From a virus: a DNA stretch of 25,992 bases. Below the pieces are notes generated by a model that was given only the letters and a program-made list of their open reading frames with translations, searched no databases and was not told the DNA's origin. How positions within the stretch are numbered: position 1 is the stretch's first letter; every line of letters begins with the position of its first letter. This document shows, one piece after another, positions 1 to 25,992 of the stretch. The stretch lies in the IMG/VR virus record IMGVR_UViG_3300025736_000003. The stretch is one strand, 5' to 3'. The position numbers and the translations under genes are program-made.

Positions 1-127
1 TGTGTATAACCCTATATCCTTCCTTCTCAGCATACTTTTTACAATATTCCTTCTGCTGTGCTATATTTTGTTGCTCGTCGTCTGTAGAGATTCTAGTGTA
101 TATTATTGCTTCCTTAACCATAAATTA
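1..127. repeat. Terminal overlap identical to 25866-25992 (circular-assembly signature); contains the first 121 nt of the recombinase gene
   Basis: Base-by-base comparison of the first and last 127 nt shows 100% identity. Minus-strand translation of 121..1 gives MVKEAIIYTRISTDDEQQ..., the same N-terminus as the CDS at 25489..25986. Confidence 0.9.
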
Positions 128-217
128 AATTTCCACCCTTATATTCTACAAATTCATTTCTTTGTATCCAGCTAAGGATTTTATCTTTTGTTAATCTATC
201 CATTCGTCTTAGGTTTG
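119..217. repeat. 99-bp perfect direct repeat, copy 1 (starts at the recombinase start codon and covers its upstream region)
   Basis: The string cataaattaaatttccaccc...cattcgtcttaggtttg at 119-217 is identical to 734-832 (offset 615 bp). Confidence 0.9.
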
Positions 218-683: not shown

Positions 684-902
684 CTAATCAGATTGCGAAT
701 ATAGTTTATTTATGAATGCTTCTAAATCATCAGCATAAATTAAATTTCCACCCTTATATTCTACAAATTCATTTCTTTGTATCCAGCTAAGGATTTTATC
801 TTTTGTTAATCTATCCATTCGTCTTAGGTTTGGACTGCAACTTCTTAAACCACCTTTAGATTTCTTCCATGGCGGATCTATCATTAAAATATCATATTTC
901 AT
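684..902 (-). CDS. Small DPPW-motif protein (72 aa), possibly a fragment or accessory subunit of an amino-methyltransferase
   Basis: IDPPW at residues 8-12 resembles motif IV of N6-adenine/N4-cytosine methyltransferases. Its start overlaps the stop of the upstream gene in an ATGA arrangement. It is too short to be a complete methyltransferase. Confidence 0.4.
   Translation of the reverse strand: MKYDILMIDPPWKKSKGGLRSCSPNLRRMDRLTKDKILSWIQRNEFVEYKGGNLIYADDLEAFINKLYSQSD
734..832. repeat. 99-bp perfect direct repeat, copy 2 (inside the 72-aa DPPW ORF)
   Basis: Identical to 119-217; encodes roughly residues 24-56 of the ORF at 684..902. Confidence 0.9.
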
Positions 903-1549
903 TCTTGCGACCCCTTCTTTAGATTAAGCGTCGAAAATATTTCATGGAATAATGCTGGAGGTATTATTGACCTTTCTTTATTTCCTTTTAACCCCTGTGT
1001 TCCTGTCTTGCTTCCTCTCGGTGCTGCTTCGTGATGGCAATGTTTAGCTCGTCCTTTTAGGAAGTTATGACATGTCTTTGGTTCCCATCCTGGTAAGTTA
1101 GTCCATATGTCTGTAGGTTTTGCTCTTGTGTCTCCGTATTGGCAATACCATGCGGTTTTTCTGCAATCAGTCGGTAAGAACCATCTAGCTCTTGCTCTTG
1201 GGTTTTCTATGAAGAATATTTTATTGTTCTTGTTGCAAAATCTCGCAATCATCAAACAAAAGTCCAATAACTCCTTACCTAGTCTTGCAGCATCCGTTTT
1301 CGGAGATCGATCTGCGTTCCAATGAGTATTCCCCGCAGCCATACTGAAAGTAGTACATGGTGGAGACATCCAAACAACATCAGCCTCTCTTATTTTATTC
1401 CAAATCTCTTCAGTTAATCCATTGTTTAAGTCTACTGTTACATCACAATTAAACTTTGGATTATTGTCTACTGTGAATGTTTCGCATCCAAGTTCCTTAG
1501 CAACCTTACTAAAACTACCTGTTCCTGCGAATAGTTCTACGGTCTTCAT
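899..1549 (-). CDS. AdoMet-dependent DNA methyltransferase-like protein (C5-cytosine type motifs), 216 aa, unusually short
   Basis: ELFAGTGSF (motif I, FxGxG) at residues 5-13, SPPCTTFSMAAG (PC catalytic motif) at 62-73, FFIENP (ENV-like motif VI) at about 111-117, and a GN....IPP motif-X-like C-terminus. AGGAGA lies 7 nt upstream of the ATG. Confidence 0.6.
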   Translation of the reverse strand: MKTVELFAGTGSFSKVAKELGCETFTVDNNPKFNCDVTVDLNNGLTEEIWNKIREADVVWMSPPCTTFSMAAGNTHWNADRSPKTDAARLGKELLDFCLMIARFCNKNNKIFFIENPRARARWFLPTDCRKTAWYCQYGDTRAKPTDIWTNLPGWEPKTCHNFLKGRAKHCHHEAAPRGSKTGTQGLKGNKERSIIPPALFHEIFSTLNLKKGSQE

Positions 1550-1682: not shown

Positions 1683-1975
1683 TTGACCTTGACCTTGACC
1701 ATGACCTTGACCATGACCCTGACCCTGACCCTGACCCTGACCCTGACCATGACCATGACCTTGACCCTGACCTTGACCCTGACCCTGACCATGACCCTGA
1801 CCCTGACCCTGACCCTGACCCTGACCCTGACCCTGACCATGACCCTGACCCTGACCCTGACCATGACCATGACCTTGACCCTGACCTTGACCCTGACCCT
1901 GACCATGACCCTGACCCTGACCCTGACCATGACCCTGACCATGACCTTGACCCTGACCTTGACCCTGACCATGAC
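1683..1975. repeat. Tandem hexanucleotide array (C/T/A)TGACC, about 49 units, with a higher-order duplication
   Basis: Direct reading shows a perfect 6-bp period with variation only at unit position 1. A block of about 65 bp recurs at roughly 1748 and 1863. All frames are open across it, which explains the four ORF-track entries here. Confidence 0.9.
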
Positions 1976-3610: not shown

Positions 3611-3787
3611 TCATTTAATAATGACACCATTCTTATTTAGCTTGATTGCTTTTCTAACTTCCTTTAATCCCTCAAACTCATACATATTGAAATGAGGAGT
3701 ACAAAAGATATATTCAATTCCTTTGTGTGCTTCTATTTTTAACTTACCACTACAAGACCCTCCGCAGATACAACATGAAGATGTCAT
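3611..3787 (-). CDS. Cys-rich small protein (58 aa), possible zinc-binding
   Basis: Manual translation MTSSCCICGGSCSGKLKIEAHKGIEYIFCTPHF... with clustered Cys/His. Confidence 0.3.
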   Translation of the reverse strand: MTSSCCICGGSCSGKLKIEAHKGIEYIFCTPHFNMYEFEGLKEVRKAIKLNKNGVIIK

Positions 3788-3864: not shown

Positions 3865-4287
3865 TTAGTTGTCTTTTAAATTTCCATTGTTTAGGCGTTG
3901 CCTTAGTTTAGTTGTAGGAATAATAGTAGAGATAACTTTTGAGATACCGTTCTTAGCCGTTTTAAGTAAGGTAGAATCGACTTTCTTATCTAAAGTTGTA
4001 GTATTCCTCATATCTAACCATTCGCAGTATGCTCTACACTTGAGAGGGGTGTTATAAATACATTTAAATTTTCTCCTGGAAGTTAATGGGCTGTTGTGTT
4101 TATGAACACAATTCATTCCGTTTGATTTTAAGTATGGGCAGTTGTGTGTTGATCTCATCTTCTTTTGTTTATATGCGTGTTTTCTATTTTCCATTTTTTT
4201 ATCTATACATTCCTCACAGAACTTTGAGAATTTACCGGTTCGTCTAAATAGTTTGCCGCAGCCTAAGCAGGGTTTTTTAAATCTCAT
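3865..4287 (-). CDS. Basic Cys/His-rich protein (140 aa), putative zinc-finger nucleic-acid-binding protein
   Basis: CLGCG...CEEC at the N-terminus plus further C/H pairs (CPYLKSNGMNCVHKH); very Lys/Arg-rich. Confidence 0.5.
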   Translation of the reverse strand: MRFKKPCLGCGKLFRRTGKFSKFCEECIDKKMENRKHAYKQKKMRSTHNCPYLKSNGMNCVHKHNSPLTSRRKFKCIYNTPLKCRAYCEWLDMRNTTTLDKKVDSTLLKTAKNGISKVISTIIPTTKLRQRLNNGNLKDN

Positions 4288-4481: not shown

Positions 4482-4578
4482 TAGAACAACTAGAACAACT
4501 AGAACAGGTGATGTCCACTCAATTCTACATATGGAAAGTAAGTGGGGTTTGCCTGTTCTTCTTGTTCTACCTGTTCTA
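4482..4578. promoter_or_regulatory. Inverted arrays of AGAACA(A/G) repeats (3 + 3 copies) around a 43-bp spacer: candidate origin or operator
   Basis: Three tandem tagaacaac/tagaacagg units at 4482-4508 and, on the opposite strand, cctgttct/tcttgttcta/cctgttcta at 4552-4578. The right arm overlaps the last codons of the primase-helicase gene. Confidence 0.45.
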
Positions 4579-6189
4579 TTTGATAATTTCACCCTTAAAT
4601 TTAATTCCAACCCATGCCCTTCCCTTCTTATTTATATCCCATGGAAGATATTTTAATTTCTGTTCAATCCCTAATTGTTTCATTTTACTACCAATTACTA
4701 CATCTGAAATTTCTCTAAACCTATTTTCTTTACACCATTCGTTTAACTTTTTAGAAAAATCATTTTTCCATACTACACCATCAGAGTCTTCTTCTGTAAA
4801 TTCTTTAAGGAATTTTTCTAAAGGATTACTATGATCCTCATATTTTTTCATTCTATCTTCAATTGTACCTTCATTAGTAAATTCTCTTTTCTCTAATAAA
4901 TCTTTTAATATTAAAGAACATTTAACAGTTAGTGCTTCATATTCCTCATCTGGTATCTCAGATAATATATCTTTCTTTTCTGAAAATTGGTTTGGAAAAT
5001 CTATAATCATCCATCTTCTATAAAATCCAATAGTTTTATCATTTGTGGCTGGAAGATTATTAGTAGCAATCATTATTTTAGCATAATTAATTTCTTCAAA
5101 AGGATCTTTATTTTTATACTCAAACCCTATTAAATCTCCACCTGATAATTTCTTTAAGATAGAAGTTTTATTCATTTCTGAAAAATTAGTTTCTCCCATT
5201 TGACAAACTAATTTTTTATGTAATCGGGTAACCTCAAATCTACTTTGTAATAAAGTATCTAATTCTGTTGAACAGCAATTACTGCCCCCAATAAATTTCC
5301 TGAGTAAATTTAAGAAACAACTTTTACCATTCATACCACCACCAATAAAACAAAAGATTCTATGGATAGGATAATCTGGAATTAAACAATATGCTAATAT
5401 TTCATATAAGGTTTGAACGTGATCCTTCCCAACCCATTCCTCAAATATTTTGTCCATTATGGGAGTTTCATAAAATCCATCTTCATTTAATTTCCATGGT
5501 ATTGGATTAGTAACAAATAGATGTGGTGTTGCCCTTGATTGCTCCCCTGTCTTAATATTCATTATAGTATTTTCAAATTGAACTGTATATTTTCCTATTG
5601 GGGCCGGAATATTTAATCTACTTACTTGTTTAAGAGCTTCAATCATCTCATTTTTTTCCTTAGAATTTATTGTGTTTATTGTTGCTTGTTTATCAACTGC
5701 ATTTAATATATCAGTTTCATCTACTCTTTCCCATTTTGTTTCTGGCCAATTCCATAACCACCAACTTCTAGAATTATCATATAAACAGGGTTGTATTTCA
5801 ATAATATGTTCTGCTAATTCTTTTTTATCGAACATATTCCCAAGTTTTTCTGTTAAATTTTCGACAGGATAATTTTTCTTTTCATTTTCTTCAATAGTTC
5901 TTTTTTGTTTTTTAAAATAATTTAATTGTTCTTTAAGAAGAGTAATTTTTCTACCAGTTTTTTTAGATAAAATTTTTAACGCATCATCTATTTCTAAAGG
6001 GGACAACCCTAAGATATTTTTTAACTCTTTTATTACTTCATCTGACGATGATATTTTTATTTTTTTATCATTTATTAATTCAATAAATCCGTTATCAATA
6101 TATTCCTGTTCATCCCCTCCTGGAAAACTCGCCTCTTTTATCTCTCCAGCTTTCCCACCAGCATAATTTTTTAATATTTTAATTTTCAT
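4576..6189 (-). CDS. D5/P4-family primase-helicase (SF3 helicase domain), 537 aa
   Basis: D5_N-like segment with SRSWWLWNWPETKW. Walker A FIGGGMNGKS (the GxGxNGKS form typical of P4-type primase C-terminal domains), motif C IMIATNNLP, and YRRWMIIDF as an arginine-finger region. Confidence 0.8.
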   Translation of the reverse strand: MKIKILKNYAGGKAGEIKEASFPGGDEQEYIDNGFIELINDKKIKISSSDEVIKELKNILGLSPLEIDDALKILSKKTGRKITLLKEQLNYFKKQKRTIEENEKKNYPVENLTEKLGNMFDKKELAEHIIEIQPCLYDNSRSWWLWNWPETKWERVDETDILNAVDKQATINTINSKEKNEMIEALKQVSRLNIPAPIGKYTVQFENTIMNIKTGEQSRATPHLFVTNPIPWKLNEDGFYETPIMDKIFEEWVGKDHVQTLYEILAYCLIPDYPIHRIFCFIGGGMNGKSCFLNLLRKFIGGSNCCSTELDTLLQSRFEVTRLHKKLVCQMGETNFSEMNKTSILKKLSGGDLIGFEYKNKDPFEEINYAKIMIATNNLPATNDKTIGFYRRWMIIDFPNQFSEKKDILSEIPDEEYEALTVKCSLILKDLLEKREFTNEGTIEDRMKKYEDHSNPLEKFLKEFTEEDSDGVVWKNDFSKKLNEWCKENRFREISDVVIGSKMKQLGIEQKLKYLPWDINKKGRAWVGIKFKGEIIK

Positions 6190-7313
6190 TCTTCAACCAC
6201 ATCTTCTTTATTTTTTATTCTAACTTTACCATTACAATAAGGATAATCCTCACAATACCAAAAAACATTATAACCACCATTTGCTTTTCCTATCTTCATA
6301 CCCTTATTACAAAGAGGACATTTTTGTTTTACAAAAGAATTAACTGTAATATTTTTTAATTCTTCTTCTATTATATTTGTTACTCTCCCACGACATCTTT
6401 CAATTATTGGTGGAATAGAATTTTCAAATTCACTAAGAACATTTTGACAAGTTTCTTTTACTGAATATATATTTATATTGTCTGCTATATTTTTTAATTC
6501 CTCTAATTTTGAATTGTTTATATCTATTAAATTTATTTCATTCTCCGAATATTTCTTAATAGAATTTTTACTCTGTTTAACAACCTTATTTATATTATCC
6601 TCAAATAAATTAAGTTTAGCATCTATAACTTCACCATAATTATTAATTCTTTTTATAAAATTATTTTCCTTATATTCCTCTAACTCAGATAATAATTTTC
6701 TATGAGATTTAATTTCTATATTATCATATTTTAATTTCCAATTAGATGTGAAATCTTCTTTGGTAAACCATACCCCACTAAACCCCTCTATAACTCTACT
6801 ATAATGTCTTTCTATAGTTTCATCATCGTGCTGTTTACTTAATTGTATCTCAAAAAATAATCCTAAGCCATATTTTGGATGAAACTCCTTTAATAAAACC
6901 ATAACATCTGTAATTACATATTCTTCACCAACTGTTCTATATTCTAATAATATATCTTTAACAAGCGTCTTGTTTAATGGAACATTATCAATTTTTATTT
7001 CTCCAGAATATATCCCAGCATAAACATTTTCTTTTGCCTTTTTATGTCCATAACTTTCTCCATTCATATTACTTTTTAATTTGGGTTGGTTTGGCATAGA
7101 CCTAAAATATGCATGAACGATTTTATCATTAGCCTTAGAAAAAGATTTAACAAAAATCATCTCTACCTCTTCACCTTCATTACAGTATACTGGTGTCGCA
7201 ATCAACTTTTCTTTTTCTCTTCCTATCCATGTAGCATCGTTTTCAAATTTAAAAGCAGTAACTAGTTTTTGTGTTTCTTTATGTATAACAGAAATATATT
7301 TTGCGTCACTCAT
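6186..7313 (-). CDS. Replication-associated protein with C-terminal topoisomerase-type zinc ribbon (about 375 aa)
   Basis: C-terminal CPLCNKGMKIGKANGGYNVFWYCEDYPYCNGK matches the C4 zinc-ribbon pattern of topoisomerase I C-terminal fingers. ATGA-coupled to the helicase gene downstream. I placed the start at the ATG at 7313, which is ATGA-coupled to the upstream ORF; the track start at 7328 is TTG. Confidence 0.55.
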   Translation of the reverse strand: MSDAKYISVIHKETQKLVTAFKFENDATWIGREKEKLIATPVYCNEGEEVEMIFVKSFSKANDKIVHAYFRSMPNQPKLKSNMNGESYGHKKAKENVYAGIYSGEIKIDNVPLNKTLVKDILLEYRTVGEEYVITDVMVLLKEFHPKYGLGLFFEIQLSKQHDDETIERHYSRVIEGFSGVWFTKEDFTSNWKLKYDNIEIKSHRKLLSELEEYKENNFIKRINNYGEVIDAKLNLFEDNINKVVKQSKNSIKKYSENEINLIDINNSKLEELKNIADNINIYSVKETCQNVLSEFENSIPPIIERCRGRVTNIIEEELKNITVNSFVKQKCPLCNKGMKIGKANGGYNVFWYCEDYPYCNGKVRIKNKEDVVEE

Positions 7314-7546
7314 TTTATATTTATCCAATATAATTTATTAAGAATTTTATTTATTAAGAACTCTTTATTTGCAGGGCATATAGTTAGATCACCAACTTGT
7401 AATTTTCTACCCATATTTTTTTCTAAACACTTTATACATAATAAATCAGCATCATTATTATATTTTTCCCAAAGATTATTATTAATCATATAAAAATTAT
7501 TAGTATAGGTAATATCTAAACCACATTTATCACATTGGATATTCAT
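7310..7546 (-). CDS. Small zinc-ribbon protein (78 aa)
   Basis: CDKCG ... CIKC pairs; ATGA-type coupling with both neighbours. Confidence 0.45.
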   Translation of the reverse strand: MNIQCDKCGLDITYTNNFYMINNNLWEKYNNDADLLCIKCLEKNMGRKLQVGDLTICPANKEFLINKILNKLYWINIK

Positions 7547-7779
7547 TCTCCCACCTCTTCTTCATAATCTTTAATATCAAATATCTCGTCGAGAAATAAC
7601 CTTTCCTTTTTCCCTTGGATTCTTAAATCCTCAAACCAATAAAATGTTTCGTTCTCTAATTCAGAATGAATAATACCATTAGCAAAACCAGTAGGAACTT
7701 TTTTAACATGACATTTAAGTTTCTCTCTATAGTAGAAATTAGCTTTCTGTTTCACCGCTTTTTGTATATCTTTTTCCAT
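7543..7779 (-). CDS. Hypothetical protein (78 aa)
   Basis: ORF coupled to the downstream gene; a UUCG-tetraloop hairpin (acacc-ttcg-ggtgt on the minus strand) sits just upstream of its ATG. Confidence 0.4.
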   Translation of the reverse strand: MEKDIQKAVKQKANFYYREKLKCHVKKVPTGFANGIIHSELENETFYWFEDLRIQGKKERLFLDEIFDIKDYEEEVGE

Positions 7780-8277: not shown

Positions 8278-10089
8278 TTAATTTACCTCCCTAATATATT
8301 TATAAACCCAAACTCCGTTACAAATAGAATCATCCAATCCTAATCTTGAACTCCCACTCATATATCTTACAACACCTTTAGCAGTATTATTAAATATAAA
8401 GTTTTCCATTGTCCATTCAACTCCTTCGTTTTGACAAGCCGCCTCAAAATAAACCGTTTCTGCCTGATTTGTTTCACAATAATTTCCACTCCAATTCATT
8501 TCGCTATATTGAAAATTTGGAATGGCTGAAAAACAAGTCCCACCAGTATTATTCAAATAAACATTATTGAATCTTACAATATGATTTGGGTCTGCATAGT
8601 TTCTCCAAAATTGTTTTATTCCATAGCTATTTGTATTTAGCATTGTAACATTATTACCCTCGACAATAGTGTTTTCACTTCTAGGAAATATTGCTATTCC
8701 AGTCGTTCCAGTATTAATCCCATAAATTGTATTGTTAATAACTGAGGTATCTTTATTTGAATTAGTCGAGCCTGTCCCTTGAATCTGTATCCCACTTCGT
8801 CCATTATAAGAAATGTAGATAGTATTATTTATTATATCATTTCTATTTGAAATAAGGGCGGCTCCAAAAACTATTGGATTTCTGTTTCCTGTTGTGTTAA
8901 TCCAATTATCTCTTATAATATTATCATTGTGAGTTCCAGTATTAAAATGTATAATACCATCTTGAATTTTGTTATTTTTAACTATATTATTACTTGCCCC
9001 GTTGTAGATACTTATAGAGTTAGCAATTCCGAAAAAGTTATTTTTTTCTATCAGATTATTATTATTATTTGTATGAAAACTTATTCCATTTGAAATACCC
9101 GTCAAGGTGTTATTAATATAATTATTATAAGAACAGCTTGAATAACATTCTATATTATCAGTCCCCCCCGTGAAGGTTGTTACATTATTTCCAGTAATAT
9201 TTGTATGAATTACACCAACCATATAAATTCCGTTTTGGGTAGTTCCACCGTTGGCAGAAGTAACATTATTATTATTTATGTTTTCATAATCCCCTCTTAA
9301 ATAAACGGGATAATTATTGTTTCCAGTATTTCCAGCCTTAACATTACAATTTTGCAAAGTATTTCTATCAGAACCATACGCCATATAAACTCCATATCTT
9401 GAACTTGAATAAGTTGTTCCGTAAGTTATATCATATCCATCGCAATCAAGAATTATATTGTCTCCAGTAAAAGTCATACAAGTTCCTGTCGATGAAACAC
9501 TTACGTTCAATTTATAATTTTGGTTGCTTGTTGCGAAAGTAGAACAGGCTGTCACATTTGTATAAGCTAAATTCATTCCGTCTAAAGTTTGCTTAAATTT
9601 TAGAGTTAAAGTTTTCTTATCTTTGCTCAAATCCCAAGAGCAATTTATCAAACACTCTTTATCAAAATCGAAGATTTGTCTGAATTCATTCCATTCATCC
9701 TTAGGATTCTTTTTATAAGTATATGCGGATAGCGTCTTAAAATCAGGATTAATTTCTTCAAGCAAAATTATATCCGAATCACTTTTTAAAGTATAAATGA
9801 AATCTTTTAATGAATCACTTTTTGTTGTTGGTTTAATAATATATTTTCCTTTCTCTTCTATAAAATCTAAATCATAAGATTTTGAAGATAAAAAGGTATC
9901 TTCTTTAAGTTCTATGTTCGCACTATTCCAATCGGTATCAAAAACTATTTTATTGCTATCCTTACTAATTAATGTTATACTAGAAGATATATCTTCTCCA
10001 ATATTTGAATCTAAATCACTTCCAAAGATTAAAGGTAGAATACCAATTAACAATATTAGAATAGAAAAATATATAATTTGTTTTTTCAT
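8278..10089 (-). CDS. Secreted right-handed parallel beta-helix repeat protein (603 aa), receptor-binding/adhesin- or depolymerase-like
   Basis: Signal peptide MKKQIIYFSILILLIGILPLIFG. Many about 22-aa repeats of the form NNxI.G.N.....GI (NNIVKNNKI, NIIRDNWI, NDIINNTIYIS, SVINNTIYG, NTIVEGNNVT), typical of pectate-lyase-fold beta-helices. Dense NxS/T sequons. Confidence 0.65.
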   Translation of the reverse strand: MKKQIIYFSILILLIGILPLIFGSDLDSNIGEDISSSITLISKDSNKIVFDTDWNSANIELKEDTFLSSKSYDLDFIEEKGKYIIKPTTKSDSLKDFIYTLKSDSDIILLEEINPDFKTLSAYTYKKNPKDEWNEFRQIFDFDKECLINCSWDLSKDKKTLTLKFKQTLDGMNLAYTNVTACSTFATSNQNYKLNVSVSSTGTCMTFTGDNIILDCDGYDITYGTTYSSSRYGVYMAYGSDRNTLQNCNVKAGNTGNNNYPVYLRGDYENINNNNVTSANGGTTQNGIYMVGVIHTNITGNNVTTFTGGTDNIECYSSCSYNNYINNTLTGISNGISFHTNNNNNLIEKNNFFGIANSISIYNGASNNIVKNNKIQDGIIHFNTGTHNDNIIRDNWINTTGNRNPIVFGAALISNRNDIINNTIYISYNGRSGIQIQGTGSTNSNKDTSVINNTIYGINTGTTGIAIFPRSENTIVEGNNVTMLNTNSYGIKQFWRNYADPNHIVRFNNVYLNNTGGTCFSAIPNFQYSEMNWSGNYCETNQAETVYFEAACQNEGVEWTMENFIFNNTAKGVVRYMSGSSRLGLDDSICNGVWVYKYIREVN

Positions 10090-11619
10090 CTAACAGCCTC
10101 CATAAAATATTCCAGTATCATTATATTTAGTAGTTCCAATACAAGCAAATTCTTCTACATATACAGCTTCGGTCATATTAACATTAGCTCCAATTTCAAA
10201 AATCCCATCGCCTGTCTCTGGATATAATTTTAAGTTTGGTGCATTATTCTTTAAATCAAATTCCCAATCAATAGTAGTAGTGTCATCAACAATATCATAT
10301 AAGCTAAATAGCCCAGGTTGTATTAGAGAATTATAATGAGTGCCCGTTGTCCAATCTGTGAAATCTGTTGCGTCTGTAACAAATAATATTGGAGACCCTG
10401 CAATCGCATCCATAAATCCATAAAAATAATTCCCAGAAATTCCATATCCTTCTATATCCCAATCCCCAGTAGCAGTCGAGCTACCGTCTGATTTCCAATA
10501 ATTAGAACTTCCATTCCAATTCCCATTAAAATAATCTGCTGTTATATTTGCTGTAGTTGTTATATCATTATCTTTAAAATTAACATCACCATCAGCTTCA
10601 ATAACCATTCTTTCATTCGAATATCCATTTGTATAGAATGCTAAGTCTGTTGCTACTTCTGTCCCCATTGAAAATCTCCCGTCGTTATATCCATAATAAC
10701 TAAAAATAAAATCTGTTGGAGAATAAACATCATTATAAAATAATCCTGTCCAATAACTTGCATCTGTATTTTGGTGAACTTCAAATGGTGCATAATTTAC
10801 ACTTGTTGTTTCACTACCCATTAAAAAACTTCCAGCAGTATTTGTTACACTTAATCCTGTTGATGATACACTTCCAGTTATATTAGAGTTTCCACTTACT
10901 TCTAAATCTCCTCCTATGTCTGCGTCGTCACCGACAAACAAATCATCCCAAGATATAATATCACCAATATTAGTTTCTATGTTTCCTGCTATAGCATAAA
11001 TATCTCCACCAGCAGAAGTTATTGCCCCGTTGGCACTAATAATTCCACTCGAAGTTATATTATCGAAAATTGAATTACCAATTACTTCTAATGTTCCATA
11101 GAACTTACTCGTTTGTAAATTGCCAATAGTTCCAACAAAGAAATTATTTCCGTTTAAAAAATTAATATATGTATTTCCACCGTCAAGAATCAAATCTGCT
11201 AATCCATTTGTAAAAATAGCTTCTCCAAAAATTCCATGATATAGTGAGAAGTCTGTATCAATATTATTACTTATTGTTAAATTATTTGATGTAAATGCTC
11301 CACCATTAATAATATCATTCCCACCCATATCAATATCTCCGGCCATTGTGCATCCGGTTAAAGCACACCACAAAGCATTTCCAAAAGATGTCAAATATGT
11401 TTCGCTAATAGTTAAGATTCCTCCGACGTTGTTGTGCTGGGTGGAATCAACACCTGTTAGAGCACCTATATTTGTTATCCAATTATTTGATGCATTAACA
11501 AAAGCTGTATTATTATCAAAAGGTATAGGGGGTGAATTTAAATCTATACCAATTATACCATCAACACCAGCACTAGAAAAACCAATCATTAAGATTAGCA
11601 ATAAAACCGAGTATTTCAT
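10090..11619 (-). CDS. Secreted Gly/Asn/Thr/Asp-rich repeat protein (509 aa), fibre/adhesin-like
   Basis: Signal peptide MKYSVLLLILMIGFSSAG, followed by low-complexity Gly-rich repeats (GGDLEVSGNSNITGSVSSTG...). Confidence 0.55.
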   Translation of the reverse strand: MKYSVLLLILMIGFSSAGVDGIIGIDLNSPPIPFDNNTAFVNASNNWITNIGALTGVDSTQHNNVGGILTISETYLTSFGNALWCALTGCTMAGDIDMGGNDIINGGAFTSNNLTISNNIDTDFSLYHGIFGEAIFTNGLADLILDGGNTYINFLNGNNFFVGTIGNLQTSKFYGTLEVIGNSIFDNITSSGIISANGAITSAGGDIYAIAGNIETNIGDIISWDDLFVGDDADIGGDLEVSGNSNITGSVSSTGLSVTNTAGSFLMGSETTSVNYAPFEVHQNTDASYWTGLFYNDVYSPTDFIFSYYGYNDGRFSMGTEVATDLAFYTNGYSNERMVIEADGDVNFKDNDITTTANITADYFNGNWNGSSNYWKSDGSSTATGDWDIEGYGISGNYFYGFMDAIAGSPILFVTDATDFTDWTTGTHYNSLIQPGLFSLYDIVDDTTTIDWEFDLKNNAPNLKLYPETGDGIFEIGANVNMTEAVYVEEFACIGTTKYNDTGIFYGGC

Positions 11620-11942
11620 TACTCAAACCTTCCTCTACTCATAAAAAACCATATACCAGATAAGGTTGTAACACCAGTTACAATCAATAGGATAGGGAGT
11701 GTTATTAGCCCAGCTTTAGTAGTCATTACCAAGCTTAATAAAACACAGGATAATGATGCTAGTGTAGCCCATTGTGGCATATCTGCATAACCGGATCTCT
11801 TACTTTGCATTATAGATCCTCTAAGAAAAATTAACATCCATGTAAAAAATAAAATCATAATTGGCAAAGCAGGTATTATCGTCGCAGTTCCTATTAATAC
11901 TTCATCTGGAGTCGTCCCATTTGGAAATTCAAATGTTGCCAT
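11619..11942 (-). CDS. Small polytopic membrane protein (107 aa)
   Basis: Three hydrophobic helix-length segments in the translation. Confidence 0.5.
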   Translation of the reverse strand: MATFEFPNGTTPDEVLIGTATIIPALPIMILFFTWMLIFLRGSIMQSKRSGYADMPQWATLASLSCVLLSLVMTTKAGLITLPILLIVTGVTTLSGIWFFMSRGRFE

Positions 11943-11943
11943 A

Positions 11944-12375
11944 CTATTCGGGTGATCTCCCTAACCATGCTTTAATTGTGAAATATCCAATAATAAAAGT
12001 TATCATTGTTACAAATGTTATGGCAATAAAACTAAATTCCCTACCAAATATTATAAAGAACCCAGTATTAAATGAAGAGATAGCTAAACTCATCGCAGTT
12101 AATGGGCCTATTTTAAATTGTGCACCAGTTGATGAATGTTCGTCACCACTTTCAAGTGTCGATTTAAATAATATTTCTTGTGATGTTTCAGATTCTCCTG
12201 AAAGTTTTGTGATGTTGCTTTTTATGCCGGTTTCTAAATTAGCATATCTTGAATCCTGTGCTAAACTAATATCTGAATCGTTATCTATTGCAAATTGAGT
12301 CATAAATATTATTACAGAAACAATAAAAATACCTGTTAATGCTGCTCCAATAATCATTCTTGAATATCCAGCCAT
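11944..12375 (-). CDS. Membrane protein (143 aa)
   Basis: N- and C-terminal hydrophobic helices flanking an acidic middle region. Confidence 0.5.
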   Translation of the reverse strand: MAGYSRMIIGAALTGIFIVSVIIFMTQFAIDNDSDISLAQDSRYANLETGIKSNITKLSGESETSQEILFKSTLESGDEHSSTGAQFKIGPLTAMSLAISSFNTGFFIIFGREFSFIAITFVTMITFIIGYFTIKAWLGRSPE

Positions 12376-14888
12376 TATCTTTTACCACTCCCTTTAATTA
12401 TAACAACAACAACAGCTACGACAAACCATAATATTGTTGCCCCTGCCCCTACAATAGATGTTGAGTATGCTAAGTTTAATCCTATTAACAAAAATGCTCC
12501 AAGTATTAAAAATATACCCGTAATTAATGGATTATCACTTACACCCATACCGAACATTAATAATAATAATACAATAGATGAGAAGATTAAAACTCCTCCA
12601 TATTGATCCTTAGGATTATCTTTTAATAATATATAACCTTCCCTTCTTATATCTCCATTTAAAGCAATCGTCGCATATATTGTAGAGTTGCCAAATGATT
12701 CTGGTATAGTACATAATAGAGTTCCACCTGCAGCATTTAATAAATCAGAACATACAGAGGTATTACCAAAATTATCTATGAGTGTTACGTTCAACTGTAC
12801 AATATTACTAACACCACTAATTATCCCAAAAGTAGAACTTACAACCCTTGTATCTTTATCATAAGTTAAAGATGAGAAGAAATCTGATTCTGTAATTATA
12901 TCAAATAAATCTGTTCCTGTAATTAAAGCATTCAAATTAATTTCACATGAAGTTATAAGAGGATTTTGGCAATTAGCTATTACCTCAGTAAAGCTATCTA
13001 ATAGTTCACCATCTTTAATAAAAAACAAATTATATATAACATCGTTTGGAACTAAGTGTGCTATTGTAAAACCATTAGTACCACTCATAGGTATTTCTAT
13101 AGTTTTAAAAACACCTTCTTCAATATATTTTCTCTGGACTTGAACTATTAAATCAGAAACTGGTATAAAATCTTGCCCCTTATATGTTATTTTAAATTCC
13201 TGTCCTTCAGATTCTGCTAAGTTATATAATGTTATATTTTGTGATCTAGTAGAATTATCAAAAATAAAGTTTTGAACATTATAAAATTCCACAAATTTAT
13301 CTATTGCTGTATATTCAATTACTGCATCCATCCTTAAAGTAGAATTACCAACAGAATTATTCATACAAACTCTAGCAGGATTTATTTTTGAATATTCTTT
13401 TGAAAATTGTATTATTTCCTCAGAGTTATCAGGAAAAGAAAATCTCATATCAAGTTTTATAGAAGAATTTTCTGTTACTCCATCTATTTGTAATTGTGTT
13501 GTTTCATCTACAATGGTAAAATTAAAGATTTGATTAGTAAAAACTGAGCAATCATCAATACTAATTTCAAATATAGTTTGATTTTGTGTAGTAGAATTTT
13601 GTATAAAACCGCTTTCTAAAGAAACACTCCAATAGAATGGCACAACTTCCGTACCATTAACTTGTTGTATATTTTTATTTATTGTTGCGAACCATTCGTC
13701 GTCGTCATATTCCGTAAATGTTGTAGGGTAAGACGTTCCATTATAAACGAATAAAACATTAGTTAATCTCTCAAATGTTATAACTGATATATTTATATTA
13801 AAATTAGAAGTATCACCCTCTAATACATTAGGGGAAAACTCTTCGTTTAAAACACTAAATGGAACAACATTAAAAGTAAAATTATTTTGTGCAAACGTAC
13901 AATTATTGAATGAAGAGTTCTCATAACAAATTTCTGCATTCCAAATATAATTTCCCAAAACAAATTCGTCGATAAACAATGATTCGTTAAATGTTCTATT
14001 TGGAGAAAGAGATATTGTAGTTTGGTTATGTATAGAACTATCATTATTCCATATAAAGTAAGTTACATTTGTTACATTATAATCACCAATAACATCCCCA
14101 CTAACTGTAAAATTTGCACCTATATCTGATATTGTTGAATCATTTACAGGAGAAATTAATTTTATTAATCCACCACCTGAATATGGTAATGCATCACTTG
14201 AATTATAAAGTTCTATTATTTCATCAGGTGTTAGAATTTTATTAAAAATTCCAACCTCATCAATATCTCCGTTCCAAGCATTTGTATATCCAACATTATA
14301 TCCTATCCCAGTTTTCGTACCAACAGTACCCTGCCCTGTCATATTCTCTTTCCAAATAGTATCAATATACATTTGTGTATTAGTTCCATCCCATACTAAC
14401 GTAGCCATATGCCAAGCGTTATCAAATAATCCTAAAACACCTGAGGTATCCCAAGCTATCCCTTCTTGTAATAATCTTATATCTGAACTATAACTTGCAG
14501 ATGTAGCAATACAATTCCCCTTCCCTGTATCACCATTGATACAAAGTAATCTACCTTCCGATCCAGGCTGTGTTGTAGATTTAAACCAAACATTTGCAGA
14601 ATAATCTCCTGTCTGAACACCGCTTGTTCCATAAAGTGAATTACCAGAACCATCATAATTACGTCCATCTATTAATATCCCTGAGGAATTTGTTGTTCCA
14701 GAATTTGTTAAATTATTTGAAGAAACTATATCTGTTAAAACATTGTTATCTAATTTATAATAAGAAGTTATATTATCATTCCAATCAAAACCACTAACTT
14801 GTGTTGAAAACGTAAGGATGAAACATACTACCACTATCAAAAAGATTGATGAGGATGGCTTATACGAAGAGTTTTTTTCAGTTTTCAT
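12375..14888 (-). CDS. Large surface (spike/envelope-like) protein, 837 aa, with N-terminal signal peptide and C-terminal membrane anchor
   Basis: Signal-like N-terminus (SIFLIVVVCFILTFSTQVSG) and about 70 C-terminal hydrophobic residues ending in KGSGKR. Numerous NxS/T sequons. A possible concanavalin-A/LamG-like beta-sandwich near the N-terminus is my inference only. Confidence 0.6.
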   Translation of the reverse strand: MKTEKNSSYKPSSSIFLIVVVCFILTFSTQVSGFDWNDNITSYYKLDNNVLTDIVSSNNLTNSGTTNSSGILIDGRNYDGSGNSLYGTSGVQTGDYSANVWFKSTTQPGSEGRLLCINGDTGKGNCIATSASYSSDIRLLQEGIAWDTSGVLGLFDNAWHMATLVWDGTNTQMYIDTIWKENMTGQGTVGTKTGIGYNVGYTNAWNGDIDEVGIFNKILTPDEIIELYNSSDALPYSGGGLIKLISPVNDSTISDIGANFTVSGDVIGDYNVTNVTYFIWNNDSSIHNQTTISLSPNRTFNESLFIDEFVLGNYIWNAEICYENSSFNNCTFAQNNFTFNVVPFSVLNEEFSPNVLEGDTSNFNINISVITFERLTNVLFVYNGTSYPTTFTEYDDDEWFATINKNIQQVNGTEVVPFYWSVSLESGFIQNSTTQNQTIFEISIDDCSVFTNQIFNFTIVDETTQLQIDGVTENSSIKLDMRFSFPDNSEEIIQFSKEYSKINPARVCMNNSVGNSTLRMDAVIEYTAIDKFVEFYNVQNFIFDNSTRSQNITLYNLAESEGQEFKITYKGQDFIPVSDLIVQVQRKYIEEGVFKTIEIPMSGTNGFTIAHLVPNDVIYNLFFIKDGELLDSFTEVIANCQNPLITSCEINLNALITGTDLFDIITESDFFSSLTYDKDTRVVSSTFGIISGVSNIVQLNVTLIDNFGNTSVCSDLLNAAGGTLLCTIPESFGNSTIYATIALNGDIRREGYILLKDNPKDQYGGVLIFSSIVLLLLMFGMGVSDNPLITGIFLILGAFLLIGLNLAYSTSIVGAGATILWFVVAVVVVIIKGSGKR

Positions 14889-15427
14889 ACATTAAACCTC
14901 CCTTCAGGGCTTCCGGTAAAAAATATTATACCAGCTATAAATGCAATTATTGTCATTATAACAGGGCTATAAATAATTAAATAAGATACAAGTGAAGCAT
15001 CCCTGAGGTTTATACCCAACTCATCTTGCCCAACATAAAACTCTTCATAGAATTGGCTAACCGCTATGCACGTTATTATTAATAATAATACTGAGAATAC
15101 AAATAAAGCTATAACCCAACCATTATGATTATCTCTCATCACAAAAGATAGCGATAGTAATCCAACAATACCAACAATATAAATCAAACCCATAATCAAA
15201 CCAATATTATTTATTATAGAACCAATAGGGGTTAATACTGTTTCTGTATATTCGCTTACATTTATTCCAGGTGCAACTTCTCCTATATCATTAAACGCAG
15301 GGAATATTTCATCAGTTGTGGTTTTAATAACACCCCATCCAATAGTTGCCCCAGCCACAAGTAATACTAGGAATATTAATCCACCAATCAATAATGCTAT
15401 AGCCCATATTTGTCCTTTGTTATTCAT
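14885..15427 (-). CDS. Polytopic membrane protein (180 aa, about 4 TM)
   Basis: Four hydrophobic helix-length stretches; ATGA-coupled to neighbours. Confidence 0.55.
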   Translation of the reverse strand: MNNKGQIWAIALLIGGLIFLVLLVAGATIGWGVIKTTTDEIFPAFNDIGEVAPGINVSEYTETVLTPIGSIINNIGLIMGLIYIVGIVGLLSLSFVMRDNHNGWVIALFVFSVLLLIITCIAVSQFYEEFYVGQDELGINLRDASLVSYLIIYSPVIMTIIAFIAGIIFFTGSPEGRFNV

Positions 15428-15630
15428 TTGTGTTTCTCCGGTAAGTTAGTTAATTCTTCTAGCAACTTTCTATAACTTGGACATCTAGTTGCCAAGTTTG
15501 ATATTTTAGGCATTGTCATTTCCCTGGGCGAACACCTACTCAGCTTCTTTTCCATTCTTGTAGCACCAGCTTTAAATAAGTCTGTAAACAGTGTTTCATC
15601 CATTCTAGCAGTCCTACTCTTTGATTTCAT
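15424..15630 (-). CDS. Small basic protein (68 aa)
   Basis: ORF coupled by 4-nt overlaps on both sides; Arg/Lys-rich. Confidence 0.35.
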   Translation of the reverse strand: MKSKSRTARMDETLFTDLFKAGATRMEKKLSRCSPREMTMPKISNLATRCPSYRKLLEELTNLPEKHK

Positions 15631-17131: not shown

Positions 17132-17133
17132 TG

Positions 17134-20787: not shown

Positions 20788-21137
20788 CAATAAACTCTAA
20801 CTAAAAATGTTTTCCCATAATCTTTCGTAACCCACGTTCTGGATTCTATTAAAGAATAAATGTTATCACCATCTTTTAATTTAATTCCTGTATCAATATC
20901 ATTTTTTTGTGGTTGTCTTGAAAAAGTATTTGGTGCTAATCCTAACTTAATCAAACCCACATAATTATTATTATCACCAATATCAATCTTTATATTATCA
21001 AAATCAACAACATCTTTATTATGCTCAACAGCACCATAGATTCCTACAAAAGAACCAATTAATAATACAGATAAGATAGCCGCCACCGAGTATAAAACTT
21101 TAGGGTTGTTTAATAATTGTTTTACTTCTTTATCCAT
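20787..21137 (-). CDS. Small membrane-anchored protein (about 116 aa)
   Basis: I placed the start at the ATG at 21137 (MDKEVKQLLNNPKVLYSVAAILSVLLIGSFVGIYGA, with an N-terminal TM or signal anchor). The track start at 21158 is a GTG lying inside the upstream repeats. Confidence 0.45.
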   Translation of the reverse strand: MDKEVKQLLNNPKVLYSVAAILSVLLIGSFVGIYGAVEHNKDVVDFDNIKIDIGDNNNYVGLIKLGLAPNTFSRQPQKNDIDTGIKLKDGDNIYSLIESRTWVTKDYGKTFLVRVY

Positions 21138-21350: not shown

Positions 21351-21406
21351 ATCTTAATTAGCAAAGCAAAGTTTAAATACTTACTTACTTACTAATTAAT
21401 GTAAAG

Positions 21407-24936: not shown

Positions 24937-24956
24937 AATTATTAGTAAGTTAGTTA

Positions 24957-25986: not shown

Positions 25987-25992
25987 AAATTA
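25866..25992. repeat. Terminal overlap, second copy (identical to 1-127)
   Basis: Identical 127-mer at both window ends, implying a unit length of 25,865 bp. Confidence 0.9.

What the first reader, a model, noticed from the sequence alone, without database searches (positions are those of the whole stretch)
4576..7313. Self-contained replication module: zinc-ribbon protein plus D5/P4-type primase-helicase
The helicase has the GxGxNGKS Walker A and motif C typical of P4/D5 primase C-terminal domains but no obvious primase domain at its own N-terminus. The ATGA-coupled upstream protein ends in a topoisomerase-type C4 zinc ribbon and may supply priming or DNA recognition. No polymerase is encoded, so the element relies on host replication.
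Basis: partly seen in the sequence, partly recalled or inferred. Interest (0 to 1): 0.45.

Follow-up and report, generated by a model that had tools for sequence, protein, structure and literature searches.

The report
Virus nuclease–helicase replication module
A small circular, probably archaeal, virus genome carries a coupled gene pair for a DNA-cutting enzyme and a DNA-unwinding motor next to a likely replication origin; in related elements the same cutter sits in front of six unrelated motors that all begin with the same short N-terminal domain.

Summary
Two minus-strand genes overlap by ATGA: a 375-aa protein (6186-7313) and a 537-aa helicase (4576-6189).

The helicase is a P4/D5-type SF3 helicase with no primase domain (TIGR01613 6e-41, DUF5906 2e-17).

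The upstream protein is not a primase. It has three parts:
- a CoiA-like PD-(D/E)xK nuclease domain, with invariant D136 and E155-x-Q157;
- a long coiled coil;
- a C4 zinc ribbon of topoisomerase type.

- An inverted array of 3+3 nine-bp iterons (4482-4578) starts at the helicase stop codon. It can fold as a hairpin and is a likely origin.
- In 69 of 69 related loci with enough downstream DNA, the nuclease gene is followed on the same strand, usually overlapping, by a P-loop protein of one of six classes: SF3, MCM and four unnamed.
- Nearly all these motors start with the same ~40-aa ribosomal-L9-N-like "handle". Its sequence tracks the nuclease, not the motor.

Best reading: a helicase tethered to a structure-specific nuclease, used for replication or recombination. 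The closest tested analogues are the bacterial CoiA/RadA and YraN/ComM pairs. The joint function is inferred, not shown. The pairing looks undescribed in the library searched. Novelty: new variant of a known kind. Interest 0.6.

The parts
7543..7779 (-). First gene of the operon: a conserved 78-aa protein of unknown fold
   Evidence: tblastn finds homologues 200-500 nt upstream of the nuclease gene in close and distant relatives (L013, L012, L010, L077, L088, L023, L041, L005, L075, L065). It has no Pfam or PDB sequence match. It overlaps the next ORF (7310-7546) by 4 nt (ORF coordinates).
7310..7546 (-). Variable small ORF (78 aa) with CxxC...CxxC, specific to this element
   Evidence: The only hit among the 95 loci is L008, the IMG/VR copy of this same contig. 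It overlaps the nuclease start by ATGA.
6186..7313 (-). 375-aa protein: CoiA-like nuclease, coiled coil, zinc ribbon
   Evidence: 24 close homologues and 240 cluster representatives at E<=1e-3. AF2 model has mean pLDDT 79.
6762..7064 (-). PD-(D/E)xK nuclease core (residues ~84-184). GES..H...K helix (E86, H90, K94), E124, D136 at the start of beta2, E155-I-Q157 in beta3, R169, S179, W182
6354..6704 (-). Long, poorly conserved coiled coil (residues ~204-320)
   Evidence: AF2 predicts helices 204-279 and 282-320. This region is variable in length and sequence in alignment A1. PDB profile hits for it are only coiled-coil proteins.
6210..6326 (-). C-terminal C4 zinc ribbon of topoisomerase type (residues ~330-368)
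   Evidence: Pfam Zn_ribbon_Top1 matches at E 0.042 here and in 32 of 83 members, best 2e-14. The homologue in L015 scores 40.9 bits against a cut-off of 32. AF2 predicts three short strands at 338-367.
6064..6189 (-). N-terminal ~42-aa 'handle' of the helicase (MKIKILKNYAGGKAGEIKEASFPGGDEQEYIDNGFIELIND), resembling the ribosomal L9 N-domain
   Evidence: blastp aligns only the N-termini of otherwise unrelated MCM and 'U639' proteins of relatives: 52-60% identity over the first 35-87 residues, E 4e-10 to 6e-19. An iterated HMM hits 62 ORFs, always at their N-terminus. The profile matches the L9 N-domain in the PDB at E 5.8e-5.
5431..5766 (-). D5_N-like domain of the helicase (residues 142-253)
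   Evidence: Pfam D5_N matches at E 9e-4, just below the cut-off. It is above the cut-off in the homologues of L009, L010, L015 and L018.
5014..5349 (-). SF3 helicase ATPase core (residues 281-392) with Walker A GGGMNGKS and motif C ATNN
   Evidence: DUF5906 2e-17. TIGR01613 6e-41 over residues 203-494. PDB 7ola 'DNA primase' 2e-12 over residues 198-410.
4594..4725 (-). C-terminal putative winged-helix DNA-binding domain of the helicase (residues ~489-532)
   Evidence: The only direct signal is a weak Pfam match to Rep3_C (WH2) at E 0.043. The homologue in L010 matches the Pox_D5 C-terminal domain at 9e-6. The DNA-binding role is inferred.
4482..4578 (.). Candidate origin. On the + strand, three 9-bp iterons (TAGAACAAC TAGAACAAC TAGAACAGG) lie at 4482-4508. 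Three inverted copies lie at 4552-4578 and overlap the helicase stop codon. The spacer is 43 nt.
   Evidence: Tandem Repeats Finder rows and inverted-repeat pairs. Five of the seven exact TAGAACARS matches in the window lie here. The DNA folds at -22.3 kcal/mol, z -6.7, with 0 of 200 shuffles folding as well. The same architecture, with different iteron sequences, follows the SF3 genes of L009, L011, L045 and L052. It is absent after the MCM genes of L001, L012, L022 and L051.

Best explanation
The region is the replication operon of a complete circular element of about 25.9 kb, probably an archaeal virus. The operon runs from 7779 down to 4576 on the minus strand.

Shown:
- The 537-aa protein is a P4/D5-type SF3 helicase with no primase domain.
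- The 375-aa protein is a CoiA-like PD-(D/E)xK endonuclease with an intact active site, followed by a coiled coil and a C4 zinc ribbon.
- A hairpin-forming inverted iteron array begins at the helicase stop codon.
- Across deep divergence, the nuclease gene is followed at once by a P-loop motor from one of six unrelated classes. Most of these motors begin with an L9-N-like handle of about 40 aa.

Inferred:
- The helicase recognises the iteron array through its C-terminal domain, melts it and loads itself, as P4 alpha, papillomavirus E1 and SaPI Rep do.
- The nuclease is held at the helicase, most simply by the handle, and cuts branched DNA that the helicase exposes: ss/ds junctions, flaps, D-loops or the extruded hairpin. 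This would start, process or resolve replication and recombination intermediates.
- Host polymerase, and here also host primase, do the synthesis.
- The motor travels as a cassette. For SF3 motors the cassette includes the cognate iterons. The nuclease, the handle and the 78-aa protein form the constant part.
For: Helicase identity.

Nuclease fold and family:
- AF2 model of the N-domain: pLDDT 84.9, pTM 0.80.
- The motif set is invariant.
- CoiA_nuc matches 25 of 83 members.
- hhalign to an annotated CoiA aligns GES..H, (R)AD and E-[IV]-Q.

Linkage of nuclease and motor:
- 69 of 69 loci with enough downstream DNA carry a same-strand ORF starting -143 to +376 nt from the nuclease stop. 67 of them lie within -143 to +2 nt.
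- Motor classes: SF3 34, U489 11, MCM 10, U455 4, U639 3, U758 2.
- P-loop motifs can be read directly in the four unnamed classes.

Handle:
- It is present in every SF3, MCM, U455, U639 and U758 motor.
- Handle identity correlates with nuclease identity equally for pairs with the same motor and pairs with different motors (Spearman 0.67 and 0.61). Mean handle identity is the same in both groups.

Origin candidate.

Precedent: CoiA is a structure-specific endonuclease. It cuts 5'-tailed ss/ds junctions at position -1, resolves D-loops, and acts synergistically with the RadA helicase. YraN does the same with the AAA+ helicase ComM (bioRxiv 10.1101/2024.02.06.579203).

The nuclease is kept whether or not a Prim-Pol is present, so it serves something other than priming.
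Against: - No experiment or complex prediction links the two proteins physically.
- Adjacent genes are inherited together anyway. The conserved handle-coding DNA could simply be the recombination point at which motors are swapped.
- The L9 N-domain is an RNA-binding domain, so the handle could bind nucleic acid rather than the nuclease.
- The window protein itself does not reach Pfam's CoiA_nuc threshold. Its membership is indirect, through family members and hhalign.
- Nine of eleven U489-class motors lack a detectable handle.
- The iteron hairpin follows SF3 motors only, so it says nothing about what the nuclease acts on.
- The winged-helix assignment in the helicase is weak (E 0.043).
- Host assignment is indirect.
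Confidence: 0.55

Rival explanations
1. The nuclease is the replication initiator. It acts as an origin-specific nickase: the zinc ribbon and the nuclease domain recognise and nick the hairpin or cruciform. This creates a 3'-OH for rolling-circle or sigma-type synthesis, and the nuclease then recruits whichever helicase carries the handle.
For: - The window encodes no primase.
- A hairpin-forming element lies next to the module.
- The nuclease is the constant partner while the motors vary.
- An archaeal viral Rep with a hairpin origin just downstream of its gene is a documented arrangement (Rep-Arvir, PMC13107129).
- CoiA shows sequence preference at junctions.
Against: - The iteron hairpin goes with the SF3 motor, not with the nuclease. 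It is absent after the MCM genes in L001, L012, L022 and L051.
- PD-(D/E)xK enzymes hydrolyse DNA rather than forming the covalent tyrosine adduct used by known rolling-circle initiators (established knowledge, not tested here).
- Relatives with their own Prim-Pol keep the nuclease.
- SF3 and MCM proteins are typical of theta-type or self-loading initiation.
Confidence: 0.2
2. The nuclease is a stand-alone recombination or resolution enzyme, for example a Holliday-junction or concatemer resolvase or a repair nuclease. It merely shares an operon with the helicase. The shared handle is then a DNA- or RNA-binding or oligomerisation domain of the motors, or only the recombination breakpoint.
For: - The fold group includes Hjc, VRR-NUC, T7 endonuclease I-like and TnsA proteins.
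- L9-N is a nucleic-acid-binding domain.
- Handle and zinc ribbon do not co-occur strictly. L011 and L091 have a handle but no zinc ribbon. L075, L077 and L082 have a zinc ribbon but no detectable handle.
Against: - Immediate adjacency, mostly with overlapping stop and start codons, is kept across about 25% sequence identity and six motor classes.
- Handle subtypes follow nuclease subtypes.
- The nearest characterised homologue works together with a helicase.
Confidence: 0.2
3. One reading: the upstream zinc-ribbon protein provides priming, as a cryptic AEP/PrimPol or similar.
For: The helicase lacks a primase domain and no primase is found in the window. Zinc ribbons are common in primases.
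Against: - The fold is PD-(D/E)xK, with no AEP or Toprim topology or motifs.
- There is no Prim-Pol or Toprim profile hit in 24 plus 83 family members.
- Relatives carry bona fide Prim-Pol genes in addition to the nuclease.
Confidence: 0.02
4. The nuclease is an offensive or selfish enzyme: it degrades host DNA, acts as a homing endonuclease, or counters defence. It would then be unrelated to replication.
For: The PD-(D/E)xK fold is shared with restriction and homing enzymes. The element carries a C5 DNA methyltransferase (899-1549).
Against: The gene sits in a fixed position inside the replication operon in every relative examined. This is unlike the sporadic insertion pattern of homing enzymes. 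A true intein with a LAGLIDADG homing enzyme is seen separately in L010.
Confidence: 0.03

Closest known systems
CoiA/RadA and YraN/ComM helicase-nuclease pairs of bacterial natural transformation (bioRxiv 10.1101/2024.02.06.579203)
   Same: The nuclease has the CoiA-type PD-(D/E)xK core, with GES..H...K, D in beta2 and E-x-Q in beta3. It is paired with a hexameric replicative-type helicase. ComM, like MCM and SF3, is an AAA+-type motor (from my own knowledge).
   Different: - The context is a virus or plasmid, probably archaeal, not competence in Bacillota.
- The genes are adjacent and translationally coupled.
- The nuclease has a coiled coil and a C-terminal Top1-type zinc ribbon. CoiA has an N-terminal C2H2-like finger and a C-terminal extension instead.
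- The motor is SF3, MCM or another class, not RadA.
- The activity is untested.
Phage P4 alpha / poxvirus D5 / SaPI Rep primase-helicases (TIGR01613; D5_N plus SF3)
   Same: D5_N domain, SF3 ATPase and a C-terminal DNA-binding region. Iterons lie next to the gene, as with the P4 ori/crr iterons bound by the C-terminus of alpha (from my own knowledge).
   Different: There is no AEP or Toprim primase domain. An L9-N-like handle sits at the N-terminus instead. A relative (L018) does have the full PrimPol-CHC2-D5_N-SF3 fusion behind the handle.
Archaeal CMG: MCM, GINS and the GAN/RecJ (Cdc45) nuclease
   Same: A replicative helicase is associated with a nuclease-fold protein through small mobile adaptor domains. 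The handle profile gives a weak hit (E 0.0046) to residues 17-61 of chain B of PDB 3anw, the T. kodakarensis GINS. That position fits the N-terminal B domain of Gins23.
   Different: The nuclease family differs (PD-(D/E)xK, not DHH). The GINS similarity is marginal and unverified. That chain B is Gins23 is inferred from chain length and domain order, not shown. No GINS A domain is present.
XPB-Bax1 and other helicase-nuclease repair pairs
   Different: XPB is an SF2 repair helicase. Here the motors are replicative AAA+ or P-loop hexamer types, in a mobile element.
Rep-Arvir rolling-circle initiators of archaeal viruses and plasmids (PMC13107129)
   Same: A small archaeal mobile-element replication operon with a hairpin-forming origin directly downstream of the replication gene.
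   Different: Rep-Arvir has a Rep_trans-like fold and no helicase partner. The protein here is PD-(D/E)xK.

Membership tests
P4/D5-type SF3 helicase (TIGR01613 primase_Cterm; Pfam D5_N + DUF5906) | Profile match above curated cut-offs | tested here: met
   TIGR01613 scores 140.3 bits against a cut-off of 108.7. DUF5906 scores 64.3 against 27.6. D5_N alone is just below its cut-off (19.9 against 22.4).
P4/D5-type SF3 helicase (TIGR01613 primase_Cterm; Pfam D5_N + DUF5906) | Walker A GxxxxGK[ST] and SF3 motif C (Asn) | tested here: met
   GGGMNGKS at residues 283-290. The motif IMIATNNLP is read from the translation.
P4/D5-type SF3 helicase (TIGR01613 primase_Cterm; Pfam D5_N + DUF5906) | ATP-dependent 3'-5' unwinding as a hexamer | not testable with these tools
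   Needs biochemistry.
Bifunctional primase-helicase (P4 alpha, D5, pRN1 ORF904 type) | N-terminal AEP/Prim-Pol or Toprim primase domain | tested here: not met
   No such Pfam, PHROG or NCBIfam domain is found. Residues 1-42 are the handle. The relative L018 has Prim-Pol at 2e-15, which shows the domain would have been detected if present.
CoiA family (Pfam PF06054 CoiA_nuc) | PD-(D/E)xK alpha-beta-beta-beta-alpha-beta fold | tested here: met
CoiA family (Pfam PF06054 CoiA_nuc) | Catalytic Asp in beta2 and Glu in beta3 (D95 and E105 in S. pneumoniae CoiA), in the atypical E-x-Q form | tested here: met
   D136 and E155-I-Q157 are invariant in 83 divergent members. hhalign aligns them to RAD and E-V-Q of an annotated CoiA.
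CoiA family (Pfam PF06054 CoiA_nuc) | Sequence-profile match to PF06054 | tested here: inconclusive
   The window protein has no hit at E<=1. One of 24 close members hits at 0.026. 25 of 83 distant members hit, best 1.6e-9. hhalign of the family N-domain against an annotated CoiA gives 91.4% probability, E 9e-7. The link is transitive, not direct.
CoiA family (Pfam PF06054 CoiA_nuc) | CoiA domain architecture (N-terminal C2H2-like finger, C-terminal extension) and a role in transformation in Bacillota | tested here: not met
   The architecture here is N-domain, coiled coil, C4 Top1-type zinc ribbon. The context is a mobile element whose relatives carry archaeal-type MCM.
CoiA family (Pfam PF06054 CoiA_nuc) | Structure-specific endonuclease activity | not testable with these tools
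   Needs biochemistry.
Topoisomerase-type C4 zinc ribbon (PF01396) | Four Cys in a CxxC...CxnC pattern and a profile match | tested here: inconclusive
   The Cys pattern is present (C332, C335, C353, C359, numbered here from the translation). The window protein scores 14.1 bits against a cut-off of 32. 32 of 83 relatives match, best 2e-14. L015 scores 40.9 bits.
   The fold is PD-(D/E)xK. No Prim-Pol hit appears in any family member.
Ribosomal L9 N-terminal domain-like fold (for the handle) | Sequence-profile similarity to L9 N-domains | tested here: met
   The handle profile matches five L9 N-domain PDB sequences at E 5.8e-5 to 1.7e-3. Pfam Ribosomal_L9_N matches only 3 of 40 members at >=0.09, and DUF7210 matches 4 of 40, best 3e-4.
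HUH / Rep_trans rolling-circle initiators | HUH plus catalytic Tyr motifs, or a Rep_trans fold | tested here: not met
   No such Pfam hit and a different fold.

The most novel reading that the evidence does not exclude
A large, uncultivated group of elements, probably archaeal viruses, uses a 'plug-and-play' replisome core. This core is a CoiA-like structure-specific nuclease plus a small partner protein. It docks onto a universal L9-N/GINS-B-like handle, and that handle has been grafted onto at least six unrelated replicative motors: SF3, MCM and four unnamed P-loop families. If so, the handle would be a minimal helicase-to-nuclease adaptor, analogous to the GINS B-domain tether in CMG. The four unnamed motor families would be new replicative helicases.
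Probability: 0.35. Interest if true: 0.8.

Novelty: new variant of a known kind. Interest (0 to 1): 0.6.

Why it matters
Helicase-nuclease pairs are known from repair and, recently, from bacterial transformation (CoiA/RadA, YraN/ComM). Here a CoiA-type nuclease is hard-wired to the replicative helicase of a mobile element. It stays in place while the motor is exchanged among six unrelated families.

If the nuclease and helicase do work together, four things follow:
- CoiA-type junction cutting would extend beyond Bacillota competence to the replication of a large group of uncultivated mobile elements, probably archaeal.
- The ~40-aa handle would be a candidate adaptor that could be tested directly.
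- Four uncharacterised P-loop families would be flagged as likely replicative helicases by their genomic position.
- The whole system is compact enough to test: origin, helicase, nuclease and a small protein fit in 3.3 kb. It could become a replicon or vector for poorly tractable archaea.

None of the joint function is demonstrated yet.

Tried and rejected
- Direct sequence searches with the 375-aa protein found nothing useful. This covered the PDB (coiled-coil noise only), NCBIfam and PHROGs.
- tblastn of the 375-aa protein and of the 837-aa protein against INPHARED phage and archaeal-virus genomes gave no match.
- One representative genome per species held no relative when searched with the close-family alignment. 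The broad alignment A3 was too divergent for pattern search. The sub-family alignment A4 found one 6-kb MAG contig.
- Weak haloarchaeal plasmid and virus hits to the nuclease core (H16, H29) show no helicase neighbour and were not pursued.
- I tested whether the handle pairs with the zinc ribbon. Presence and absence do not match, so this is not supported. My regex there under-called zinc ribbons, so the result rests on reading the protein tails by eye.
- An exact 8-mer iteron scan was too strict. It was replaced by a 7-mer cluster scan and inverted-repeat search.
- Rep-Arvir (PMC13107129) was checked as a possible prior description. It has a different fold.
- The AFDB50 fold library was unavailable. 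BFVD gave only weak hits, E >= 1.9e-3, a few of them annotated as PD-(D/E)xK nucleases or restriction enzymes.
- The 78-aa protein had no PDB profile hit.
- No tRNA genes are present.
- The promoter-like motif AAAGTTTAAATA is not enriched overall.


Full report
**1. The observation**

The window is a complete circular element. Bases 1-127 are identical to 25866-25992, an assembler overlap, which gives a genome of 25,865 bp at about 30% GC. It has no tRNA genes.

Nearly all genes between about 680 and 21160 lie on the minus strand. The two ORFs in the finding are there as described:
- 4576..6189 encodes 537 aa.
- 6186..7313 encodes 375 aa.

They overlap by ATGA. The chain of coupled genes continues upstream:
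- 7310..7546 (78 aa) overlaps the nuclease start by ATGA.
- 7543..7779 (78 aa) overlaps that ORF in turn by 4 nt (coordinates).

The unit is therefore a four-gene operon.

**2. The helicase**

Sequence profiles agree on a P4/D5-type SF3 helicase:
- Pfam DUF5906 at 2e-17 over residues 281-392, and D5_N at 9e-4 over residues 142-253.
- NCBIfam TIGR01613 'phage/plasmid primase, P4 family' C-terminal domain at 6e-41, above its curated cut-off.
- PHROG 864 at 6e-64.
- PDB 7ola 'DNA primase' at 2e-12 over the ATPase region.

Walker A is GGGMNGKS and motif C is ATNN. No primase domain is present. tblastn with the Prim-Pol proteins of relatives finds nothing anywhere in the window.

The C-terminal ~45 residues give only a weak winged-helix signal (Rep3_C, E 0.043). 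A relative's C-terminus matches the Pox_D5 C-terminal domain at 9e-6.

**3. The upstream protein**

It has 24 close homologues (alignment A1). An N-domain profile (A2) finds 240 cluster representatives at E<=1e-3 among 1.84 billion proteins.

AlphaFold2 gives a confident N-domain. The full-length model has pLDDT 79. The domain-only model has pLDDT 84.9 and pTM 0.80. The model shows:
- an alpha-beta-beta-beta-alpha-beta core at residues 88-184;
- a coiled coil of about 115 residues;
- a small three-stranded zinc ribbon.

In 83 divergent members, H90, E124, D136, G151, E155, Q157 and R169 are invariant. E86, K94, Q161, S179 and W182 are nearly so. The motifs read GES..H...K, (R)AD and G.GI.FE[IV]Q.S.Q.

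Family assignment rests on these results:
- Pfam CoiA_nuc matches 25 of the 83 members, best 1.6e-9.
- Zn_ribbon_Top1 matches 32 of the 83, best 2e-14.
- hhalign of the N-domain profile against a PGAP-annotated 'competence protein CoiA' from a Halomicrobium plasmid gives 91% probability, E 9e-7, and aligns the same motifs.

The protein is therefore a CoiA-like PD-(D/E)xK nuclease with an intact catalytic set, followed by a coiled coil and a Top1-type C4 zinc ribbon. It is not a primase.

**4. A likely origin**

The helicase stop codon (TAG) is the first triplet of TAGAACAGG. On the coding strand this is one of three 9-bp direct repeats. After a 43-nt spacer come three inverted copies. The whole element spans window 4482-4578.

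Five of the seven exact TAGAACARS matches in the window lie in these 97 nt. As single-stranded DNA the element folds at -22.3 kcal/mol. Its z-score is -6.7, and 0 of 200 shuffles fold as well.

The same architecture follows the SF3 helicase genes of relatives L009, L011, L045 and L052: 3 x 9 bp, inverted, 44-56 nt apart, starting at or near the stop codon. Each has its own iteron sequence. It is absent after the MCM genes of L001, L012, L022 and L051.

The iterons therefore travel with the SF3 cassette. By analogy with P4 alpha (from my own knowledge), I infer that the helicase binds them through its own C-terminal domain.

**5. Comparative genomics**

I collected 93 related loci. Some are duplicates, and L008 is this same contig in IMG/VR.

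Gene order. In all 69 loci with enough downstream DNA, the nuclease gene is followed on the same strand by an ORF starting -143 to +376 nt from its stop. In 67 of them the start lies within -143 to +2 nt.

Motor classes. After removing the first ~40 residues, the downstream proteins fall into six unrelated classes:

| Class | Loci | Identification |
|---|---|---|
| SF3 | 34 | D5_N + DUF5906 |
| U489 | 11 | precomputed Pfam PF27228 MTBMA_p00010_2nd |
| MCM | 10 | Pfam MCM_OB, MCM and MCM_lid at up to 1e-44 in L001 and L012 |
| U455 | 4 | unnamed |
| U639 | 3 | unnamed |
| U758 | 2 | unnamed |

Each unnamed class has a readable P-loop.

Variants of the SF3 motor. One relative has an intein in its helicase (L010). 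One has a full PrimPol-CHC2-D5_N-SF3 fusion (L018). Three have a separate Prim-Pol gene (L006/L007, L010, L091).

The handle. The window helicase shares only its first ~35-87 residues with the MCM and U639 proteins of close relatives: 52-60% identity, E 4e-10 to 6e-19.
- An iterated HMM of this handle hits 62 of 643 ORFs. Every hit is at an ORF's N-terminus, just downstream of the nuclease gene.
- It is found in every SF3, MCM, U455, U639 and U758 motor, and in 2 of 11 U489 motors.
- Handle identity correlates with nuclease identity whether the two motors are of the same class (Spearman 0.67) or of different classes (0.61). Mean handle identity is equal in both groups at every divergence level. 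These pairwise values are descriptive, not independent tests.
- The handle profile matches the N-terminal domain of ribosomal protein L9 in the PDB at E 5.8e-5, with four more L9 entries below 2e-3.
- It also matches residues 17-61 of chain B of 3anw, the T. kodakarensis GINS, at E 0.0046. That position fits the N-terminal B domain of the BA-type subunit Gins23. I treat this as a lead only.

The 78-aa protein (7543-7779) is also conserved upstream of the nuclease in close and distant relatives. It has no recognisable family.

**6. Host**

When used as tblastn queries, the MCM ATPase regions of relatives match only archaeal plasmids and viruses: 25 PLSDB records and 19 INPHARED records. These include Methanosphaera, Methanocaldococcus, Thermococcus, haloarchaea and an Altiarchaeum virus.

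The nuclease family has no member in one genome per species of GTDB, apart from one 6-kb MAG contig binned as Thermotogaceae. No deposited virus carries it.

The element also encodes:
- large beta-helix and concanavalin-like proteins;
- small proteins with two transmembrane segments;
- a P-loop ATPase;
- a C5 DNA methyltransferase;
- a serine recombinase.

No terminase or HK97 capsid protein was found among the ten large ORFs scanned against PHROGs. I read it as a non-tailed virus, or possibly a plasmid, most likely of archaea. This rests on indirect evidence.

**7. Mechanism**

Shown: the identities of the two proteins, the intact nuclease motifs, the iteron hairpin, the invariant gene order, the motor swapping and the shared handle.

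Inferred:
- The SF3 helicase acts as initiator and motor at the iteron element.
- The nuclease is tethered to the motor, most simply through the handle, and cuts branched DNA.

The best precedent is recent work on CoiA. It cuts 5'-tailed ss/ds junctions one nucleotide into the duplex, resolves D-loops, and acts synergistically with the RadA helicase. YraN does the same with the AAA+ helicase ComM (bioRxiv 10.1101/2024.02.06.579203).

The nuclease is retained whether or not a Prim-Pol is present. It is therefore unlikely to exist merely to make primers.

Rivals:
- An origin nickase, weakened because the iterons follow the motor rather than the nuclease.
- An independent resolvase that only shares the operon.
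- The handle as a mere recombination breakpoint or nucleic-acid-binding domain.

None of these is excluded.

**8. Novelty**

The helicase is ordinary. My literature searches found no description of a CoiA-like nuclease fixed upstream of interchangeable, handle-tagged replicative motors. The nearest recent paper on archaeal mobile-element replication describes a different, Rep_trans-like fold.

I rate this a new variant of a known kind (helicase-nuclease pair; SF3 initiator with iterons). The interest is moderate to high because the handle hypothesis and four candidate new helicase families can be tested directly.

Noticed in passing
window 1-127 and 25866-25992: A 127-nt exact direct repeat at both ends, which is an assembly overlap. 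The window is a complete circular genome of 25,865 bp.
   Followed up: yes
window 1684-1975: About 49 tandem copies of a hexamer (TGACCC on the + strand; GGTCAG/A/T on the minus strand), 90% matching, in a local GC-rich island of 45%. Three overlapping minus-strand ORFs cover it and would encode (GQ/GH)n, (SG/SW/SR)n or similar. Whether it is coding or a DNA element is unknown.
   Followed up: partly
window 21367-21396 and 24941-24970: A 30-nt inverted repeat, 90% complementary, containing AAAGTTTAAATA (an archaeal BRE/TATA-like sequence). It flanks the 3.5-kb stretch that holds the plus-strand genes of the element and has reversed GC skew. A serine recombinase is encoded nearby. This could be a pair of divergent promoters or an invertible segment.
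   Followed up: no
window 25489-25986 (-): Serine recombinase/resolvase-invertase family protein of 165 aa. NCBIfam matches YneB at 4e-11, Mpi invertase at 2e-10 and IS607 at 1e-9. It suggests integration or inversion capacity. Relative L003 also carries a Resolvase gene.
   Followed up: partly
window 119-217 and 734-832: A 99-nt exact direct repeat spaced 615 nt apart, near the circular junction. It is either a duplication or an assembly artefact.
   Followed up: no
window 899-1549 (-): C5 cytosine DNA methyltransferase: PHROG 757 at 9e-24, Pfam DNA_methylase at 4e-4. Relatives carry N6/N4 or C5 methyltransferases in the same arm.
   Followed up: partly
window 8278-20790 (-), 22990-23304 (+), 11619-11942 (-): The putative structural block includes a 603-aa right-handed beta-helix protein, an 837-aa Laminin_G_3/concanavalin-like protein ending in transmembrane segments, and a very basic 1218-aa protein. 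It also has small proteins with two transmembrane segments, reminiscent of spindle-shaped or pleomorphic virus capsid proteins (from memory). No terminase or HK97 capsid was detected among the ten large ORFs scanned.
   Followed up: partly
L010 7124-10063: The SF3 helicase of this relative (979 aa) is interrupted by an intein with Hint and LAGLIDADG domains.
   Followed up: no
L018 2388-4928; L006 4841-5953; L091 ~8300-9300; L010 ~10266-10844: Some relatives carry a Prim-Pol with a CHC2 zinc finger. It is fused between the handle and D5_N-SF3 in L018, or encoded as a separate gene downstream of the helicase in the others. The window has none.
   Followed up: yes
L003 11400-12869, L070 1976-3340, L005 7100-9019, L056 1062-3338: Four P-loop protein families with no informative Pfam name (U489 has PF27228 MTBMA_p00010_2nd; U455; U639; U758) occupy the helicase slot behind the nuclease. 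They are candidate new replicative helicases or initiators.
   Followed up: partly
window 3611-3787, 3865-4287 (-): Cys-rich small proteins lie downstream of the module. They have homologues at the same relative position in L001, L005, L012 and L088. Their function is unknown.
   Followed up: no
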